Translations under genes and position numbers: made by a program
The notes under the pieces: model-generated
What the model saw: the letters and a program-made list of their open reading frames with translations, nothing else
Databases searched by the model: none
What the model was told of the DNA's origin: nothing
UHGV virus genome: UHGV-1354897
Reading direction: 5' to 3' (one strand)
Source of the DNA: a virus
Length of the DNA: 61,496 nt
Part shown: one piece after another, positions 1 to 61,490 of the stretch
Numbering within the stretch: the stretch's first letter is position 1
Layout: the number at the start of each line of letters is the position of its first letter

Positions 1-54
1 CCATAAACTCGTCAAATAATACCAATAGGTACTATATACATTAATAATAAATCC
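1..54. repeat. terminal direct repeat, left copy (identical to 61437..61490)
   Basis: Exact 54-nt identity between window start and end; sequence diverges at position 55. Confidence 0.8.
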
Positions 55-1485: not shown

Positions 1486-3828
1486 ATGGAACTGTTTCCC
1501 GCTGAAATTAAAGCTTTCCCACAATGGGCGGTCGCCGATGCGGATAAAAAGCCTCTTGTATGGGACAACGATATTGGACGTTTGATGGCGGCGGACGTTA
1601 CCGATCCGGATATGCTTATGACGTTTGAAGCTGCCAAAGGTTGCGCCGCGCATTTCAACAAACCTTATATTGGCTTTGTGCTTACTGCACAAGACCCGTT
1701 CACCTGCATCGATCTGGATGTGAAGAACGCGACCAATGAACCTGATCCCAAGAAGCACACGACGCCGGAACAGTTGCGCCGCTTCGAACAGATCATGACT
1801 GCGTTCGATACTTACACCGAAGTAAGTCGCTCAGGTTTGGGTGTCCACCTGTGGTTAAGAGGTAACATCGGTAAAGGTCGCCGACGTGATGGTGTCGAGG
1901 TTTATAGTCAGGAGCGTTTTATTATCTGCACGGGCAATCCTGTTTATAACAAACCAGTTGCAGAACGTGATCATTATCTTACTATGCTTGTGAATGAAAT
2001 TGATCTTCAGCGCAAGACATATGAAATTGAACTGGTAGAAAAAGATCCGGTAGAAGACGATGCGACTATTCACCAGCGAGCACTTGAAGCGGACAACGGG
2101 GATAAGTATGCACGCCTATTCAATGGCGAATGGGTTGAAATGGGATTCCCTTCCCAGTCTGAAGCAGACCTTGCCCTTATTTCTATGTATGCATTCTACA
2201 CAGAAAGTAATGAGCAATGCCGTCGTCTGTTCCGTTACAGTGCACTGGGCAAACGTGAGAAGGCTAATAAGAACAATGTTCATATTGACCGTTGTTTGCG
2301 CATGTGCCGCGGTCGTATGGAGCGTGAGCGCATTGCCCAGGAAAACGTAGCGGCGCTGGCGCGGGATTACGCTGCTCGTATGCAAGCCGCACACAGTGCA
2401 ATGCAGCAGGTAACGGAAATGCCTGTGATTGTCGAAACAACACAGGGGCAGACAGTAGTTGCGGAAAGTACATCCATTGATGCAACAGCTATTGACTGGC
2501 CACCGGGACTCGCTGGGGAGCTTGCGAAGTACATCTACAAAGCATCCGTCCGACCAGTAAAAGAAATCTCTATTGTGACTGCGCTCGGCTTTATGGCTGG
2601 GGTATGCGGGAAAGTATGGCAGATTCCGCAATCCGGTCTTAATGGTTATTTTGTCTTAATTGCTCGTTCTGGTGTTGGTAAAGAGACGTTGAACAGTGGG
2701 CTGTCTAATATAGTTAGCCAGATTCAGGACCAGTTTCCGCAGATTCATAGCTTTGTATCTTTTGACAGATGCGCTTCTGGATCTGCACTGCGTAAATCTT
2801 TTGCAGACAAACAATCTTTTATCAACTTGAACGGTGAGTTTGGTAAGATTATCAAAGCAATGGCAACGGCTCCAGCAGGATCGCCGATGCAAAGTTTCAA
2901 GAATGACCTTACCGATGTTTATCAAAAGTCCGGTCAGATGTCTATCGTTGGTGGTATGTCTTATTCTGATAAGGCTAATAATACTGAAGCTCAACAAGGT
3001 GTGGCATATAGCATCATGGGCGAAACGACACCGGATACGTTCTTTGAAGCATTAACCCGTGAAATGATGGAGGACGGATTCTTATCCCGTTTCCATGTTG
3101 TACGCTATGAAGGTGATCGACCACCTTTAAACAAAAATCAGCAGACTACAATGGATCAGCATTTGAAGGACATGGTGTGCCATCTTGTTAACCACACTTT
3201 AGTAACAATGGCAAAGCATCAGAGTATTGAAGTACAGTTTAGCCCGGATGCGGAAACATTATGCGATCAGTTTAACGATGAATGTGATCGCAATATTAAC
3301 GCAACCAAAGACGAAGCGATCCGTCAGCCGTGGAACCGTGCTCACCTGAAGGTCTTGCGACTTTCTGCCTTGTTAGCTGTGGGTGAGAACTGGATCAATC
3401 CGGTGGTACAAACCTATCATGTGCAATGGGCTTTGGACTTCGTGCGTCATGGGCAGGATATTATTATGAAGGAATGGCATAGCGGAGGCATTGGGACTAA
3501 TGATGAAGCTCGTATCCGTACTATGTGTCAGGTCTGTGTGAATTATCTAACTAAAGACTGGGTGAAAGTTAAACGTGTAGATTTGCGCAAAGAAGGTATT
3601 ATCACGCGGGGTGATATTACTACGCGTCTTGCAAGTAAGTCCGCGTTTAAAAACTATCATCACGGATTATCCGCTGCAATCGAGTCTACAATCAAGGAGA
3701 TGGTTGCTATGGGTGCACTTGTTCCGGTAACACGGGAGGAGACTATTAAACTGGGATTTACTGGGGCAGCTTGGCGCATTACGCAAGATGTTGAAGGAAT
3801 TATGGCAAACTTAGGTGAAGAGGAATAA
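1486..3828 (+). CDS. DNA primase-helicase (AEP prim-pol N-terminal domain plus P-loop NTPase)
   Basis: AEP motifs CIDLDVKN and SGLGVHLWL; Walker A-like ARSGVGKET; 780 aa. Confidence 0.75.
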   Translation: MELFPAEIKAFPQWAVADADKKPLVWDNDIGRLMAADVTDPDMLMTFEAAKGCAAHFNKPYIGFVLTAQDPFTCIDLDVKNATNEPDPKKHTTPEQLRRFEQIMTAFDTYTEVSRSGLGVHLWLRGNIGKGRRRDGVEVYSQERFIICTGNPVYNKPVAERDHYLTMLVNEIDLQRKTYEIELVEKDPVEDDATIHQRALEADNGDKYARLFNGEWVEMGFPSQSEADLALISMYAFYTESNEQCRRLFRYSALGKREKANKNNVHIDRCLRMCRGRMERERIAQENVAALARDYAARMQAAHSAMQQVTEMPVIVETTQGQTVVAESTSIDATAIDWPPGLAGELAKYIYKASVRPVKEISIVTALGFMAGVCGKVWQIPQSGLNGYFVLIARSGVGKETLNSGLSNIVSQIQDQFPQIHSFVSFDRCASGSALRKSFADKQSFINLNGEFGKIIKAMATAPAGSPMQSFKNDLTDVYQKSGQMSIVGGMSYSDKANNTEAQQGVAYSIMGETTPDTFFEALTREMMEDGFLSRFHVVRYEGDRPPLNKNQQTTMDQHLKDMVCHLVNHTLVTMAKHQSIEVQFSPDAETLCDQFNDECDRNINATKDEAIRQPWNRAHLKVLRLSALLAVGENWINPVVQTYHVQWALDFVRHGQDIIMKEWHSGGIGTNDEARIRTMCQVCVNYLTKDWVKVKRVDLRKEGIITRGDITTRLASKSAFKNYHHGLSAAIESTIKEMVAMGALVPVTREETIKLGFTGAAWRITQDVEGIMANLGEEE

Positions 3829-3855
3829 ATAAAGGGCCTTTCGGCCCTTTATTGT
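3829..3855. terminator. bidirectional intrinsic terminator
   Basis: Palindromic hairpin AAAGGGCC-TTTC-GGCCCTTT with flanking A/T runs, between convergent genes. Confidence 0.7.
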
Positions 3856-4773: not shown

Positions 4774-4961
4774 ATCTTAAACTATTAAAGAATTTATATT
4801 GGACAGTTTGGACTATCCTTACAGTTATTCTTATCGTATATGTTAATAAATCAACTGTCCTGGGAATACTTTATGTAATAGCATATGGTATTAGCTGTAC
4901 TATTGGTTCTGCTGCTTTAGTTGTTATTTCTTATGAGGGTGATAAAGGGGAAGAAAAATGA
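4770..4961 (+). CDS. hypothetical small membrane protein
   Basis: 63-aa ORF with two hydrophobic helices; start overlaps previous stop. Confidence 0.55.
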   Translation: MNLKLLKNLYWTVWTILTVILIVYVNKSTVLGILYVIAYGISCTIGSAALVVISYEGDKGEEK

Positions 4962-5272
4962 GTATTGTAAACACTATCTGTGAGGCAATTTATGCGGAGC
5001 TTATCCGTATTGAAACTAATCTGCATAAAGAAGGACGAAAAGAAATCAAAAGAATTCTTGTAGATTTCCCTACAGCAATGGATATTCGAAGAGATGGTCA
5101 TTTATACTATTGGGGTAGTGAATACATCGATGAATGCGACGGAGGGCATTGTATCCACATGGCTATTATGAATTACCCTATTGTTCCAACCGATCAAGTA
5201 ACAGGTTTTGAGTTGATGTTAAATGATGGTACTTTAGCACCAAAAGCGGCAAAGGGAACCGCGCAAAATTGA
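4958..5272 (+). CDS. hypothetical protein
   Basis: 104-aa ORF, start overlaps previous stop. Confidence 0.6.
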   Translation: MSIVNTICEAIYAELIRIETNLHKEGRKEIKRILVDFPTAMDIRRDGHLYYWGSEYIDECDGGHCIHMAIMNYPIVPTDQVTGFELMLNDGTLAPKAAKGTAQN

Positions 5273-5289
5273 AGCTTGCCATTCAAGAC

Positions 5290-5584
5290 TGCATCCTTTA
5301 AGATAACCACAGTTAACGAGGTTTAACAATTTAACAACATTAACTTAGTGAACGATGCTTAACTCAAGCCCTTGAAAGCGGTAGCTGTACCTCCTTACAG
5401 CAACTACTTTCGCTGGGCTTCCTGGAGCGGACAGGGTAAACCCGCAACTTACTGAACGATGTGAACGATGTTTAACGCGACGGCGCCAGATGTACCAAAC
5501 CGTCACCAGCCTTTGGCGAGGCTGTACAAGTAGGCCAGGATAGACGAAGACGGCAGTCAAAGTAAGCTATCCGACAATCAAGAG
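5290..5584 (+). ncRNA. candidate structured noncoding RNA region
   Basis: About 300 nt without a convincing ORF, GC-richer than flanks, with TGAACGATG-yTTAAC repeated near 5348 and 5456, ending at a strong terminator. Confidence 0.25.
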
Positions 5585-5617
5585 AGCCCAGGAATCCTTA
5601 TGCCTGGGCTTTTTTGT
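5585..5617 (+). terminator. intrinsic terminator
   Basis: Hairpin AGCCCAGG...CCTGGGCT followed by TTTTTT. Confidence 0.8.
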
Positions 5618-5689
5618 TCCTTGTGATCAACAGAACTTCAATATAAAATTCTTTATGAAGTGTTTTACATTAAAGTTATGGAGACAAAC

Positions 5690-6157
5690 ATGGCAGTAAA
5701 TATTCGCGCTAAAGGTCAACGCGGTGAGCGGGAAGTATGCGATTTCTTTAATGCAATTTATGCTGAAATCTACGCAGAGCTGGGGATGCAGTTACCGGAA
5801 AAACCTATTGCTCAGCGTAACCAGAATCAAAGTGCGGTCGGTGGTTGTGACATTAGCAATACGTGCCACCATGCGGTTGAAGTAAAAAACCACGCTACGC
5901 CACAAGTAAACACATGGTGGAAGCAGACTGTTCAATCGGCTAAAGAGCTTGGAAGATATCCAGTTCTGATGTATAAAATAGAACGTAAAGGATGGAAGGT
6001 TGTTCTACCGCTCAATCCAGTCGTCTTTAGCAATGGTGAGTGGCAGTGGTATGAAGTTAAAGACTCCATCCGCGCGGAAATTAGTCTTGATGATTACCGC
6101 ATTATTTTTAAAGCGCACGCGAAACAATGGTTAATTGATCGCGGTTCAATTCAATAA
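5690..6157 (+). CDS. putative Holliday junction resolvase-like PD-(D/E)xK nuclease
   Basis: N-terminal KGQRGEREV, then CDIS and EVK motifs resembling Hjc/RecU-type resolvases; GGAG RBS before ATG at 5690. Confidence 0.5.
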   Translation: MAVNIRAKGQRGEREVCDFFNAIYAEIYAELGMQLPEKPIAQRNQNQSAVGGCDISNTCHHAVEVKNHATPQVNTWWKQTVQSAKELGRYPVLMYKIERKGWKVVLPLNPVVFSNGEWQWYEVKDSIRAEISLDDYRIIFKAHAKQWLIDRGSIQ

Positions 6158-26653: not shown

Positions 26654-26857
26654 TTAGAATATACGAAAGAAAGCACCGTATGGGTATACGCCAAAAGTAT
26701 TGAAAACAGGCGGTGCAAAAGCATTTACAAACACAGGAGTTGGCGCTACTGGTTGAAAAGTTTTGCAATTACACGCTGCTTGAGCCAATTGCCCCTGAAG
26801 TATACCTGCTTGTGTTGCAGGACTGCCTAGACAGCAACGGTTAGTATTACCACACAT
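26654..26857 (-). CDS. small Cys-rich protein, last gene of the leftward block
   Basis: 67-aa ORF with AGGAGG RBS; six cysteines (CC, CNC); Pro/Phe-rich C-terminus. Confidence 0.55.
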   Translation of the reverse strand: MCGNTNRCCLGSPATQAGILQGQLAQAACNCKTFQPVAPTPVFVNAFAPPVFNTFGVYPYGAFFRIF

Positions 26858-26868
26858 AGTAGACCTCC

Positions 26869-27153
26869 TTAAAGGTCGCTTTCGTTATCCTGCTTGGAAC
26901 TGGGCTTTTCGGCTTCAATCATCCCAAGTACCGCAATAACTTTAACAGCAATACGCTGAGCCAGACTGATTTGCTGCTGTGTTAATTTTCCGGTCGACAC
27001 CACAGTCATTAATCCGCTTAAGTTTCCAAGAGACTTGAAATCACTGAATGCGGATTTCATAATAGTAAGTTGATCATGACCTTCATCAGCTATAACATGA
27101 GCACGAATAGAAAGTCCTTCAACAACTTTATCAATACCTTCATTCTTCGTCAT
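26869..27153 (-). CDS. hypothetical protein
   Basis: 94-aa ORF. Confidence 0.55.
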   Translation of the reverse strand: MTKNEGIDKVVEGLSIRAHVIADEGHDQLTIMKSAFSDFKSLGNLSGLMTVVSTGKLTQQQISLAQRIAVKVIAVLGMIEAEKPSSKQDNESDL

Positions 27154-55826: not shown

Positions 55827-56369
55827 TCAATCACCAATAACCTCCTTAAAACGGTTATACAAATCACGATAGAACAAAGGACCATATTTGTTACGACGCA
55901 GGAAGTCCTTTGCTACAGCTTCCAGAGCTTCGCAGCGATCACGCAACTCTTGAGCCTTCTTCTCGGTATGCGCCCACACCTCTTCGCTGGTCACACCCGG
56001 CGGATTCATTGCACCAACAATTTGACGCAAACGAATATAAGAATCGGATAAAGCGTGTTCAGCAGCACGCATGTCGACAAGGTTAGTTTCAGCATTTTCG
56101 GCACGTTCTTCCTGAGCTCGCCATTCAGCTTCTAACTGGTCAATGCGCATGTCACGATAACCCAGCTCCGCAGCAATATCACCTTTGCTGTGCAAGCCTT
56201 CGGACGTCATCGCCATAACATGACGGGAGTAATAACCTCCAGCTTGATCCAGTTCCCAAGCGTCACGCTCACGGTATAAACAATCACACTCCACCAGAAT
56301 AGGTTCACCCCACGGTTGAACGCCACCACTATCAACCATTCCTGTCCCGTTACATTTTTGACAGCTCAT
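55827..56369 (-). CDS. hypothetical protein with N-terminal CxxCxGxG zinc-ribbon-like motif
   Basis: MSCQKCNGTGM...CDC; AGGTGGAG RBS before ATG at 56369. Confidence 0.55.
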   Translation of the reverse strand: MSCQKCNGTGMVDSGGVQPWGEPILVECDCLYRERDAWELDQAGGYYSRHVMAMTSEGLHSKGDIAAELGYRDMRIDQLEAEWRAQEERAENAETNLVDMRAAEHALSDSYIRLRQIVGAMNPPGVTSEEVWAHTEKKAQELRDRCEALEAVAKDFLRRNKYGPLFYRDLYNRFKEVIGD

Positions 56370-61436: not shown

Positions 61437-61490
61437 CCATAAACTCGTCAAATAATACCAATAGGTACTATATACATTAATAATAAATCC
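61437..61490. repeat. terminal direct repeat, right copy (identical to 1..54)
   Basis: Exact 54-nt match to the window start. Confidence 0.8.

What the first reader, a model, noticed from the sequence alone, without database searches (positions are those of the whole stretch)
5290..5617. About 300-nt untranslated, GC-richer segment with internal repeats ending in a strong terminator
No ORF with an RBS is evident; the only track ORF (5345..5560, reverse) is Arg-rich and looks spurious. The motif TGAACGATG-yTTAAC occurs twice about 110 nt apart, and the segment ends at a textbook terminator. This is a candidate small RNA or regulatory leader within the early region.
Basis: seen in the sequence. 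Interest (0 to 1): 0.5.

Follow-up and report, generated by a model that had tools for sequence, protein, structure and literature searches.

The report
Structured small RNA gene of Seuratvirus phages
The segment is very likely a real, previously undescribed ~300-nucleotide non-coding RNA gene with its own promoter and terminator. It is found in every sequenced Seuratvirus phage of E. coli and Salmonella, its folding is preserved by matching mutations, and its job is still unknown.

Summary
Window 5273-5689 has no conserved ORF, is GC-richer than its flanks, carries the stated repeats and ends in a strong intrinsic terminator.

The window is a complete Seuratvirus (Queuovirinae) genome. The element lies between a variable 104-aa gene and a RusA-like nuclease gene. 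A sigma70-type promoter (5276-5304) precedes it; the hexamers are kept or improved in divergent relatives.

Comparison with Salmonella phage STP-SP5 and other variants shows 12 base pairs with compensatory double changes, against about 2 in controls. About 10% of pairs are G-U, so the fold is specific to the + strand. The supported parts are:
- a 19-bp hairpin whose loop, ACCUCCUUA, matches the 16S rRNA 3' end (anti-Shine-Dalgarno);
- an H-type pseudoknot;
- three further hairpins;
- the terminator.

Two unstructured tracts carry nine phased U(U/G)AAC motifs, three of them as UGAACGAUG.

Nothing matches in Rfam, E. coli genomes, plasmids, GTDB genomes or sister genera. The literature searched does not describe it.

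Best reading: an independently transcribed, trans-acting RNA, probably made early, that works as a decoy or regulator. The mechanism is inferred, not shown. A cis attenuator and a replication origin are weaker rivals.

The parts
5276..5304 (+). Sigma70-type promoter: TTGCCA, 17-nt spacer, TAAGAT. Predicted transcription start near A5311/G5312.
   Evidence: Found by the pattern scan. It is TTGACA-17-TAATAT in STP-SP5 and TTGACA in ECP2304, and substitutions fall in the spacer, not the hexamers. The start site is inferred from spacing, not measured.
5311..5366 (+). Unstructured 5' tract with six U(U/G)AAC motifs spaced 8-10 nt. It includes the tandem UUUAACAA x2 (5322-5337) and the first copy of GUGAACGAUGCUUAAC (5348-5363).
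   Evidence: Fold z = -0.19, meaning no stable structure. STP-SP5 lacks 8 nt, about one repeat unit. The cluster is unique in the genome.
5367..5419 (+). P2: a 19-bp interrupted hairpin.
   Evidence: Free energy -25.9 kcal/mol, z = -5.2. Six pairs carry compensatory double changes and three carry wobble changes. P2 is only 64% identical to STP-SP5, yet 18 of 19 pairs are kept.
5389..5397 (+). ACCUCCUUA at the tip of P2, with CCUCCU (5390-5395) as the loop. It is identical to the last 9 nt of E. coli 16S rRNA (the anti-Shine-Dalgarno sequence).
   Evidence: Invariant in all 12 aligned copies although the flanking stem has diverged. ACCTCCTTAC is a 10-nt identity to the end of rrsH.
5420..5445 (+). 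Proposed H-type pseudoknot. S1 is 5420-5424 paired with 5432-5436. S2 is 5427-5430 paired with 5442-5445. Loop L3 is UAAAC.
   Evidence: All cells pair in both stems. S2 has one compensatory change (C5428U with G5444A in STP-SP5). The S1 closing pair alternates U-A and U-G (7 versus 5 sequences). The three-dimensional fold itself is inferred.
5446..5478 (+). Second unstructured tract, AACUUAC-UGAACGAUG-UGAACGAUG-UUUAAC: a tandem 9-nt repeat plus a UUAAC motif.
   Evidence: Fold z = +0.9. Copy number varies: Dru_SM1 has three perfect units. Contig L141 tolerates a ~100-nt hairpin insert here.
5479..5524 (+). Hairpins P3b (5479-5483 / 5500-5504, 16-nt loop) and P3c (5507-5513 / 5518-5524). A loop-loop pairing CGCCA (5485-5489) with UGGCG (5514-5518) is possible.
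   Evidence: All cells pair. P3c has two wobble-preserving changes (A-U to G-U, G-C to G-U). The sequence is otherwise invariant, so the kissing contact cannot be tested by covariation.
5538..5572 (+). P5 hairpin: 5538-5543 / 5567-5572, with an inner stem 5549-5551 / 5556-5558.
   Evidence: Free energy -10.4 kcal/mol, z = -3.6. Five pairs carry compensatory changes, seen in the SA80RD and Dru_SM1 variants.
5579..5616 (+). Intrinsic terminator: 14-bp stem, 10-nt loop, U6 tract at 5610-5615.
   Evidence: Free energy -21.9 kcal/mol, z = -4.6. SA80RD-type phages have a different terminator at the same place.
5621..5649 (+). Promoter-like site for the downstream RusA-like gene (TTGTGA, 17-nt spacer, TAAAAT). 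It is not part of the RNA but marks the RNA as a separate transcription unit.
   Evidence: Found by the pattern scan. A promoter is annotated at the equivalent place in SA80RD. This rests on consensus match only.

Best explanation
Window 5276-5616 is an independent gene for a highly structured non-coding RNA of about 300 nt, specific to Seuratvirus phages.

Proposed layout. Host RNA polymerase would start at a sigma70 promoter (5276-5304), near position 5311, and stop at the intrinsic terminator (5579-5616). In order, the RNA is:
- an unstructured 5' tract with six U(U/G)AAC motifs;
- a long hairpin (P2) that displays the anti-Shine-Dalgarno sequence ACCUCCUUA at its tip;
- an H-type pseudoknot;
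- a second unstructured tract with tandem UGAACGAUG units;
- three hairpins;
- the terminator.

Shown here: the boundaries, the absence of coding capacity, the + strand structure and the narrow distribution.

Inferred: the RNA acts in trans during early infection as a decoy or regulator. In this reading the C-rich CCUCC loop pairs with GGAGG ribosome-binding sites to limit translation. The reiterated single-stranded motifs titrate an RNA-binding protein of the host or the phage.

My probabilities: about 0.85 that it is a genuine structured RNA gene, about 0.55 that it acts in trans (the confidence given for this explanation as a whole), and about 0.25 each for the two specific modes (Shine-Dalgarno pairing; protein sponge), which could coexist.
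For: Transcription unit.
- The promoter hexamers are conserved or improved (TTGACA-17-TAATAT in STP-SP5) while the spacer varies.
- The terminator is strong.

Not coding.
- No ORF survives comparison with STP-SP5, SA80RD or L141.

Structure.
- In a two-sequence comparison, 7 of 75 predicted pairs have compensatory changes and none is broken.
- On 12 sequences, 98.5% of cells pair. Twelve pairs have double changes, against 2.1 +/- 1.2 in shuffles (0 of 500 reach it) and 1-2 in slid controls.
- P2 has diverged as much as the neighbouring gene (64% versus 63% DNA identity) yet keeps 18 of 19 pairs.
- 9.8% of paired cells are G-U. Pairing falls from 98.5% to 89.2% on the opposite strand.
- The loop ACCUCCUUA is invariant within a diverged stem.
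- The repeat tracts are predicted to be single-stranded.

Autonomy.
- The RNA stays at least 99% identical where the upstream protein is only 53-64% identical.
- The downstream gene differs between lineages.

Distribution.
- It is present in all 35 Seuratvirus records.
- It is absent from 80 related loci of other genera, from E. coli genomes and plasmids and from GTDB genomes.
- It sits in the variable accessory region between the primase and RusA-like genes. Klebsiella phage K4PH164 has no such region there.
Against: - There is no expression data, so the promoter and start site are predictions. The scan finds as many promoter-like sites as chance predicts in this region (10 versus 10.1).
- Covariation rests on few independent lineages: E. 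coli type, STP-SP5, the SA80RD/Dru_SM1 3' variant, and the IMGVR29643/L102 type.
- Three single sequences (Greed, KS_A3, slur01) each carry a G-to-A change that breaks a pair at the base of P2.
- The invariant 3' half in STP-SP5 may reflect recent recombination rather than selection, because its RusA-like protein is also 95% identical.
- No target was found. Complementarity to the phage's own genome is at chance level.
- Only two other sites in the window, both on the - strand and each just upstream of a small ORF, read UAAGGAGGU.
- Host targets could not be searched.
- No RNA-binding protein with U(U/G)AAC specificity is known to me.
- The phased repeats would also fit a DNA-level function.
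Confidence: 0.55

Rival explanations
1. Cis-acting leader or attenuator. The folded P2-pseudoknot domain senses a ligand or protein and decides whether the terminator forms. Read-through from the strong promoter into the RusA-like, dUTPase and following genes would be controlled this way.
For: - The layout matches a riboswitch: promoter, complex structured domain, terminator, then genes.
- GGCUUCCUGG (5416-5425, the 3' base of P2 plus pseudoknot stem S1) is 90% complementary to CCAGGAAUCC (5588-5597, the 5' half of the terminator). It could act as an antiterminator (pair I3).
- About 6-7 of these pairs remain possible in STP-SP5 (read from the alignment).
Against: - SA80RD-type phages keep the 5' two-thirds of the RNA unchanged but have an unrelated terminator with no such complementarity.
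- The compensatory changes in STP-SP5 keep P2 but weaken the alternative pairing.
- The next gene differs between lineages: RusA-like, an 82-aa ORF, or HNH.
- A separate promoter-like site follows the terminator.
- No riboswitch family matches, including preQ1 classes, at E up to 10.
Confidence: 0.12
2. DNA-level element: the phage origin of replication, or another protein-binding array. The phased T[TG]AAC / GTGAAC direct repeats would be iterons or primase recognition sites, and transcription through them would activate the origin, for example through an R-loop.
For: - The element lies about 1.5 kb downstream of the primase-helicase gene (NrS-1-like HBD domain plus DUF3987), inside the replication module.
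- Nine same-strand repeats are spaced 8-10 bp, the densest cluster in the genome.
- The number of units varies between phages.
- An AT-rich stretch follows.
- The NrS-1 primase-polymerase recognises GTGA/GTGG and TTTGGTTA (PMC8718748), and GTGAAC occurs twice here.
- From my own knowledge, phage P4 alpha primase-helicase binds TGTTCACC iterons, whose reverse complement is GGTGAACA.
Against: - Compensatory changes and about 10% G-U pairs show selection on a + strand single-stranded fold, not on duplex DNA.
- The repeat core is only 5 nt.
- A 100-nt insertion inside the second cluster is tolerated.
- Cumulative GC skew has no inflection here.
- Relatives with an orthologous primase lack the element, and K4PH164 has the primase directly next to the RusA-like gene.
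- The element is bounded by a promoter and a terminator.
Confidence: 0.08
3. The RNA is real but has no trans function. It would be a structured 3' end that stabilises and insulates the upstream operon's mRNA, or a remnant of a mobile element flanked by the 16-22-nt direct repeats.
For: - The stop codon of the upstream gene (5270-5272) lies 4 nt before the -35 element, so upstream transcripts would run into the element and end at its terminator.
- The repeat AACUUA[G/C]UGAACGAUG[C/U]UUAAC flanks the P2-pseudoknot module on both sides.
Against: - A terminator alone would be enough for stabilisation. It does not explain conservation of five further structural elements, an invariant loop and the element's own promoter.
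- No similar sequence exists elsewhere in phages, plasmids or bacterial genomes, which argues against a mobile element.
Confidence: 0.1

Closest known systems
Regulatory RNAs with C-rich loops that pair with Shine-Dalgarno sequences (Staphylococcus aureus RNAIII hairpins, RsaE); from my own knowledge
   Same: A stable hairpin presents a conserved C-rich loop (CCUCC here, UCCC there) complementary to GGAGG/GGGA ribosome-binding sites. The RNA has its own promoter and an intrinsic terminator.
   Different: No sequence or structural homology. The host is a Gram-negative bacterium and the gene is in a lytic phage. No target has been identified. The 9-nt identity to the 16S rRNA 3' end goes beyond what pairing alone requires.
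Protein-sponge RNAs with reiterated single-stranded motifs (CsrB/CsrC/RsmZ with GGA, CrcZ with A-rich motifs); from my own knowledge
   Same: A short motif is repeated many times in accessible regions of a structured RNA of a few hundred nucleotides. The copy number varies between relatives.
   Different: The motif is U(U/G)AAC / UGAACGAUG, not GGA. It lies in linear tracts rather than hairpin loops. No cognate protein is known. No Rfam family matches.
Phage T4 gene 32 translational operator (a 5' pseudoknot followed by an unstructured tract of UUAAA/UAAA repeats bound cooperatively by gp32); from my own knowledge
   Same: An H-type pseudoknot is immediately followed by an unstructured tract with short A-rich repeats (5420-5478).
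   Different: In T4 the tract overlaps the ribosome-binding site of gene 32 itself. Here no gene is attached, the repeats differ, and further domains are present.
Known phage-encoded small RNAs (lambda OOP, P22 sar, P1/P7 C4, P4 CI RNA, T4 band C/D RNAs, EHEC prophage AgvB/AsxR); from my own knowledge
   Same: A small non-coding RNA encoded by a phage and made by host RNA polymerase.
   Different: Those are mostly 70-150 nt antisense or sponge RNAs with a known complementary partner nearby. This RNA is about 300 nt with multiple domains and has no complementary partner in its own genome. The C4 family and all other Rfam families gave no match.
E. coli rrn leader BoxA and the 16S rRNA 3' end
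   Same: The two longest identities to the rrnH region are TTTAACAATTTA, which lies in BoxA (UGCUCUUUAACAAUUUA), and ACCTCCTTAC, the 3' end of 16S rRNA.
   Different: The GCUC half of BoxA is absent. Local alignment scores are within the range of shuffled sequences. The similarity upstream of the anti-SD sequence is not kept in STP-SP5. This is a lead only.

Membership tests
Any Rfam 15 family | Covariance-model score at or above the family's gathering threshold | tested here: not met
   No hits in the whole window at gathering thresholds. At E up to 10 on 5100-5800, the only matches are weak ones over the terminator or to unrelated families (best: Thr_leader, 23.7 bits against a gathering score of 55).
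Intrinsic (Rho-independent) terminator | A GC-rich hairpin immediately followed by a U tract | tested here: met
   Position 5579-5616, free energy -21.9 kcal/mol, z = -4.6, U6 tract at 5610-5615.
Independent sRNA gene | Own promoter, own terminator and no conserved ORF | tested here: met
   The promoter is conserved, the terminator is strong and no ORF is conserved. Transcription itself could not be tested with these tools.
Structured RNA (general) | Base pairs maintained by compensatory substitutions on one strand | tested here: met
   Twelve pairs have double changes, against 2.1 +/- 1.2 in shuffles and 1-2 in slid controls. Pairing is 98.5% on the + strand and 89.2% on the - strand.
Hfq-dependent base-pairing sRNA | Binding to Hfq and a conserved seed complementary to target mRNAs | not testable with these tools
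   A terminator with a U6 tail is present. No target was found in the phage genome beyond chance. The host transcriptome was not searchable.
Riboswitch or transcription attenuator | A conserved, mutually exclusive antiterminator/terminator pairing coupled to a conserved downstream gene | tested here: not met
   Candidate pairing I3 exists in the window. It is lost in SA80RD-type phages, which have a different terminator, and the downstream gene varies.
preQ1 riboswitches (considered because the phage makes 7-deazaguanine DNA) | A match to the preQ1-I, -II or -III covariance models | tested here: not met
   No preQ1 family appears among matches at E up to 10. The pseudoknot shares only the generic H-type topology.
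Iteron-type replication origin | Phased direct repeats | tested here: met
   The phased direct repeats are present.
Iteron-type replication origin | Conservation together with the initiator protein | tested here: not met
   The element is absent from relatives that carry the orthologous primase.
Iteron-type replication origin | Constraints that are the same on both strands | tested here: not met
   Selection is on a strand-specific fold.
Iteron-type replication origin | Binding of the repeats by the initiator protein | not testable with these tools
   Initiator binding would need biochemical assays.
Type III toxin-antitoxin antitoxin RNA (ToxI-like) | A tandem array of ~34-45-nt repeats followed by a terminator and a ToxN-family toxin gene | tested here: not met
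   The repeat units are 8-9 nt with about two copies each. The downstream gene is a PDDEXK_15 nuclease, not a ToxN-like toxin.
rrn/lambda BoxA antitermination site | The full BoxA consensus (U/C)GCUCUU(U)A... | tested here: not met
   Only the 3' part, UUUAACAAUUUA, is shared. The GCUC part is replaced by GAGG, or GAGU in STP-SP5. The alignment score is not above shuffles.
Small protein-coding gene | An ORF kept in frame across relatives, with a ribosome-binding site | tested here: not met
   All candidate ORFs change frame or length between the window, STP-SP5, SA80RD and L141.

The most novel reading that the evidence does not exclude
The RNA is a mimic of pre-ribosomal RNA. It would display the exact 3'-terminal nonamer of 16S rRNA (ACCUCCUUA) in a hairpin loop and a BoxA-like UUUAACAA repeat at its 5' end. 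This would let it titrate a factor that normally reads those rRNA features. Candidates are a 30S maturation or initiation factor that binds the 16S 3' end such as Era, NusB/S10, or an rRNA-targeting defence or toxin nuclease. The phage would thereby redirect or protect the host translation apparatus.
Probability: 0.07. Interest if true: 0.85.

Novelty: new variant of a known kind. Interest (0 to 1): 0.55.

Why it matters
Few non-coding RNAs of strictly lytic phages have been characterised. This one is large, has several domains and is universal in its genus. It sits in phages that grow on E. coli K-12; several Seuratvirus members are in the BASEL collection, for example Bas21 (GottfriedDienst).

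Public annotations either leave the region blank or place spurious CDSs on it.

The invariant anti-Shine-Dalgarno loop, the pseudoknot and the reiterated single-stranded motifs are clear handles for mutagenesis and pull-downs. The function could therefore be settled quickly, whether it turns out to be translational takeover, factor titration, anti-defence or replication. If the RNA acts on the translation apparatus or on a defence system, it would add an RNA-based mechanism to phage takeover of the host.

Tried and rejected
- Known RNA families: Rfam at gathering thresholds and at E up to 10 gave nothing beyond terminator-like noise. There are no tRNA or tmRNA genes.
- Coding: rejected.
- Host or plasmid origin of the GC-richer segment: no blastn match in 5,426 E. 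coli genomes or in PLSDB. There is no exact 24-mer match in GTDB genomes.
- Wider family:
  - nhmmer and a covariance model (R1) found nothing in 80 RusA-anchored loci of other Queuovirinae-like phages.
  - Three degenerate-pattern scans of IMG/VR recovered only the same three Seuratvirus contigs.
  - The metagenome scan gave 50 loci, of which only 8 carry the full element (a further match in L137 covers only the searched motif); all are about 98-100% identical or of the SA80RD type.
- Donor of the SA80RD-type 3' end: none found outside those five phages.
- Analogous RNAs in the same position in 9g, PSTCR4, EC151 and 83AMN: these gaps exist and end in terminators. They show no homology and appear, by eye, to be partly coding.
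- Long-range helices proposed by the two-sequence fold (5354-5361 with 5563-5571; 5420-5425 with 5535-5540): no compensatory support, and several pairs are broken in SA80RD and Dru_SM1. I prefer the local P5 hairpin and the pseudoknot.
- Antisense targets in the phage genome: at chance level. A full duplex-energy scan timed out.
- rRNA mimicry: the two longest identities fall in BoxA and the 16S 3' end, but they are not statistically distinguishable from shuffles.
- CRISPR-repeat mimicry: by eye there are 7-9-nt similarities to the type I-E repeat as I recall it (GGAUAAACC in the relatives that carry A at window 5436; GCGCCAG in the window). They are not collinear and there is no Cas6e hairpin, so I rejected this.
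- Literature: several searches and three papers checked gave no description of a Seuratvirus ncRNA. Two of the searches were poorly designed and uninformative.
Full report
WHAT THE WINDOW IS. The 61,496-nt window is a complete genome of a Seuratvirus (subfamily Queuovirinae), a lytic siphovirus of E. coli. Region 5200-5700 is 99.8% identical to Escherichia phage Skure and 98-99.6% identical to about 30 other Seuratvirus records. The first 54 nt recur at 61437-61490. Genes on the + strand (1-26 kb) are the replication and nucleotide-metabolism block. The finding lies between a 104-aa gene with no family match (4958-5272) and a PDDEXK_15 nuclease gene annotated as 'RusA-like' (5690-6157). It is about 1.5 kb downstream of a 780-aa primase-helicase (NrS-1-like HBD domain plus DUF3987).

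THE OBSERVATION.
- GC content rises to 0.455-0.53 inside the segment, against 0.30-0.41 in the flanks.
- TGAACGATG[C/T]TTAAC lies at 5349 and 5462, 113 nt apart, with a third TGAACGATG at 5453. These are the only three copies of that 9-mer in the genome.
- The repeats are more extensive than reported. A 16-mer occurs three times (5312, 5348, 5461). AACTTA[G/C]TGAACGATG occurs twice. TTTAACAA is tandemly duplicated.
- Nine T[TG]AAC motifs lie on the + strand only, spaced 8-10 nt in two clusters. The cluster of six in 52 nt is the densest in the genome and was not reached in 200 simulated genomes. The motif was defined after the fact.
- The terminator (5579-5616) folds at -21.9 kcal/mol with z = -4.6 and is followed by U6.
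- The 71-aa reverse ORF and every other short ORF change frame or length in relatives.

A TRANSCRIPTION UNIT OF ITS OWN. A sigma70-type promoter (TTGCCA, 17 nt, TAAGAT; 5276-5304) begins 4 nt after the upstream stop codon. On consensus alone such sites are no more frequent here than chance. In the divergent Salmonella phage STP-SP5, however, the same site reads TTGACA-17-TAATAT. In ECP2304 the -35 element is TTGACA, while substitutions accumulate in the spacer. The predicted start is near 5311. Another promoter-like site follows directly after the terminator (5621-5649; annotated in SA80RD). The element therefore looks like a separate, insulated unit of about 300 nt.

EVIDENCE FOR AN RNA STRUCTURE. 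STP-SP5 is the key comparison.
- Its upstream protein is only 46% identical to the window's, which is 63% at the DNA level.
- The P2 segment of the element is 64% identical.
- Despite that divergence, the two-sequence consensus fold has 75 pairs, none broken, and 7 with changes on both sides.
- I aligned 12 distinct copies (alignment A4) and scored a structure of eight helices. 98.5% of cells pair. Twelve pairs have compensatory double changes, against 2.1 +/- 1.2 in column shuffles (0 of 500 reach it) and 1-2 when partners are slid by 1-3 columns.
- Support is concentrated in three places. P2 (5367-5419) has six double changes. P5 (5538-5572) has five, which come from the SA80RD and Dru_SM1 variants and are independent of STP-SP5. 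Stem S2 of the proposed pseudoknot has one (C5428U with G5444A).
- Stem S1 of the pseudoknot has a closing pair that alternates U-A and U-G among phages. P3c shows two wobble-preserving changes.
- 73 of 742 paired cells are G-U. On the opposite strand, pairing would drop to 89.2%. The constraint therefore acts on a + strand single-stranded molecule, in the orientation of the promoter and terminator.
- Alternative long-range helices have no such support.

Caveats: there are only about four independent lineages. Three individual sequences each carry one G-to-A change that breaks a pair at the base of P2. The near-identity of the 3' half in STP-SP5 probably reflects recombination, because its RusA-like protein is 95% identical.

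ANATOMY (window coordinates).
- 5311-5366: an unstructured tract (fold z about 0) with six U(U/G)AAC motifs.
- 5367-5419: hairpin P2 (-25.9 kcal/mol, z = -5.2). Its loop region ACCUCCUUA (5389-5397) is invariant although the stem has diverged.
- 5420-5445: an H-type pseudoknot. S1 is 5420-5424 / 5432-5436. S2 is 5427-5430 / 5442-5445. Loop L3 is the A-rich UAAAC.
- 5446-5478: a second unstructured tract (z = +0.9) with tandem UGAACGAUG units.
- 5479-5524: hairpins P3b and P3c, whose loops could kiss (CGCCA with UGGCG). This cannot be tested because the region is invariant.
- 5538-5572: hairpin P5.
- 5579-5616: the terminator.

The two repeat tracts are the places where length varies. STP-SP5 lacks one leader unit and Dru_SM1 has a third perfect UGAACGAUG. 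One metagenomic phage carries a ~100-nt insert, folding at -36.5 kcal/mol, inside the second tract.

DISTRIBUTION.
- The element is in all 35 Seuratvirus records, three IMG/VR contigs and about a dozen metagenome or Logan contigs.
- It remains at least 99% identical where the adjacent 104-aa protein is only 53-64% identical.
- Five phages with an HNH homing endonuclease inserted downstream have the last third of the RNA replaced. The replacement is a diverged but structurally equivalent P5 and an unrelated terminator.
- It has no match in Rfam, E. coli genomes, plasmids or GTDB genomes.
- Neither nhmmer nor a covariance model finds it in 80 loci of other Queuovirinae-like phages anchored on the RusA-like gene.
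- Those relatives often have a non-coding-looking gap ending in a terminator at the same place. The gaps are unrelated in sequence and, by eye, partly coding.
- Klebsiella phage K4PH164 has the primase directly next to the RusA-like gene. The element therefore sits in a variable accessory region.

HOW IT MOST LIKELY WORKS. What is shown: a + strand structured RNA that is delimited, non-coding, autonomous from its neighbours and specific to one genus. What follows is inference.

The most conserved exposed features are the CCUCC-containing loop and the reiterated single-stranded motifs. A C-rich loop on a stable hairpin is how S. aureus RNAIII and RsaE engage ribosome-binding sites (my own knowledge). 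Many short motifs in accessible RNA is how CsrB and CrcZ titrate proteins (my own knowledge). A pseudoknot followed by an unstructured repeat tract also recalls the T4 gene 32 operator (my own knowledge).

I therefore favour a trans-acting decoy or regulator that is made early, with Shine-Dalgarno pairing and protein titration as the two candidate modes, at about 0.25 each. I found no target:
- Complementarity to the phage genome is at chance.
- Only two other sites in the window, both on the - strand and each just upstream of a small ORF, read UAAGGAGGU.
- The host transcriptome could not be searched.

RIVALS.
(a) Attenuator. GGCUUCCUGG (5416-5425) could pair with the 5' half of the terminator. 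This pairing is lost in SA80RD-type phages and weakened in STP-SP5, the downstream gene is not constant, and no riboswitch model matches.
(b) Replication origin or other DNA site. The phased same-strand repeats next to the primase gene, the variation in unit number and the GTGA motif recognised by the NrS-1 primase-polymerase (PMC8718748) speak for it. Against it are the strand-specific covariation, the tolerated 100-nt insert, the flat GC-skew profile and the absence from relatives with the same primase.
(c) A mere 3'-end stabiliser or a remnant of a mobile element. This does not explain the conserved multi-domain fold, the invariant loop or the element's own promoter.

A LEAD, NOT A FINDING. 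The two longest identities between the RNA and the E. coli rrnH region are TTTAACAATTTA, inside the BoxA antitermination site, and ACCTCCTTAC, the 3' end of 16S rRNA. This suggests mimicry of pre-rRNA. However, the GCUC half of BoxA is missing and the alignment scores are within the shuffled range. I give this reading about 7%.

VERDICT. This is a new, narrowly distributed family of structured phage RNA that has not been described in Rfam or in the literature I could search. Its function is unknown but readily testable in E. coli K-12 phages.

Noticed in passing
window 1-54 and 61437-61490: The first 54 nt of the window recur near its end. This is either a terminal direct repeat or an assembly overlap of a complete genome of about 61.4 kb.
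   Followed up: partly
L003 2830-3441 (SA80RD); also L095 and L125: Five Seuratvirus phages carry an HNH homing endonuclease just downstream of the RNA. The last third of their RNA gene is replaced by a diverged P5 and an unrelated terminator. This looks like a co-conversion tract from an unsampled lineage; no donor was found.
   Followed up: partly
L141 about 1145-1255 (ERZ1026901 NODE-154): A ~100-nt insert that folds into a -36.5 kcal/mol hairpin sits inside the second repeat tract of the RNA, flanked by UUAACGAUG and UUAAUGAUG. It contains AAACCCGC and GGATAAAC, which resemble the pseudoknot region, so it may be a module duplication.
   Followed up: partly
L001 2646-2807 (-), L099 446-661 (-), CSP1C record PQ202980.1: Public records annotate CDSs over the RNA gene: hypothetical proteins on the reverse strand, and in CSP1C a 'sulfatase-like protein' is listed among the features under the matched stretch. 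The reverse-strand ORFs are not conserved and are probably spurious; the CSP1C feature was not examined.
   Followed up: partly
L002 (STP-SP5), equivalent to window ~5479: STP-SP5 is mosaic, with a breakpoint inside the RNA gene. To the left it is 64-78% identical to the window. To the right it is about 92% identical, and its RusA-like protein is 95% identical.
   Followed up: partly
window 3828-3853: A perfect 11-bp hairpin (AATAAAGGGCC GAAA GGCCCTTTATT) lies between the convergent primase gene and a 74-aa reverse-strand gene that has a weak AP2-domain hit. It is a likely bidirectional terminator.
   Followed up: no
L010 3543-4000 (phage 9g), L012 3360-4000 (PSTCR4), L014 3512-4000 (Vibrio phage 83AMN): Other Queuovirinae-like phages have unannotated gaps of 450-640 nt ending in a terminator just upstream of their RusA-like gene. 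The gaps are unrelated in sequence to this RNA. The 9g gap seems to hold an unannotated ORF of about 79 aa. PSTCR4 and 83AMN carry GTGAAC/GTAAAC/GTTAAA-type short repeats.
   Followed up: partly
window 26857-26871 (-) and 55834-55848 (-): These are the only two other places in the genome with the full UAAGGAGGU sequence that is complementary to the RNA's loop. One precedes a 67-aa Cys-rich ORF and the other a ~24-aa ORF upstream of a 130-aa gene.
   Followed up: no
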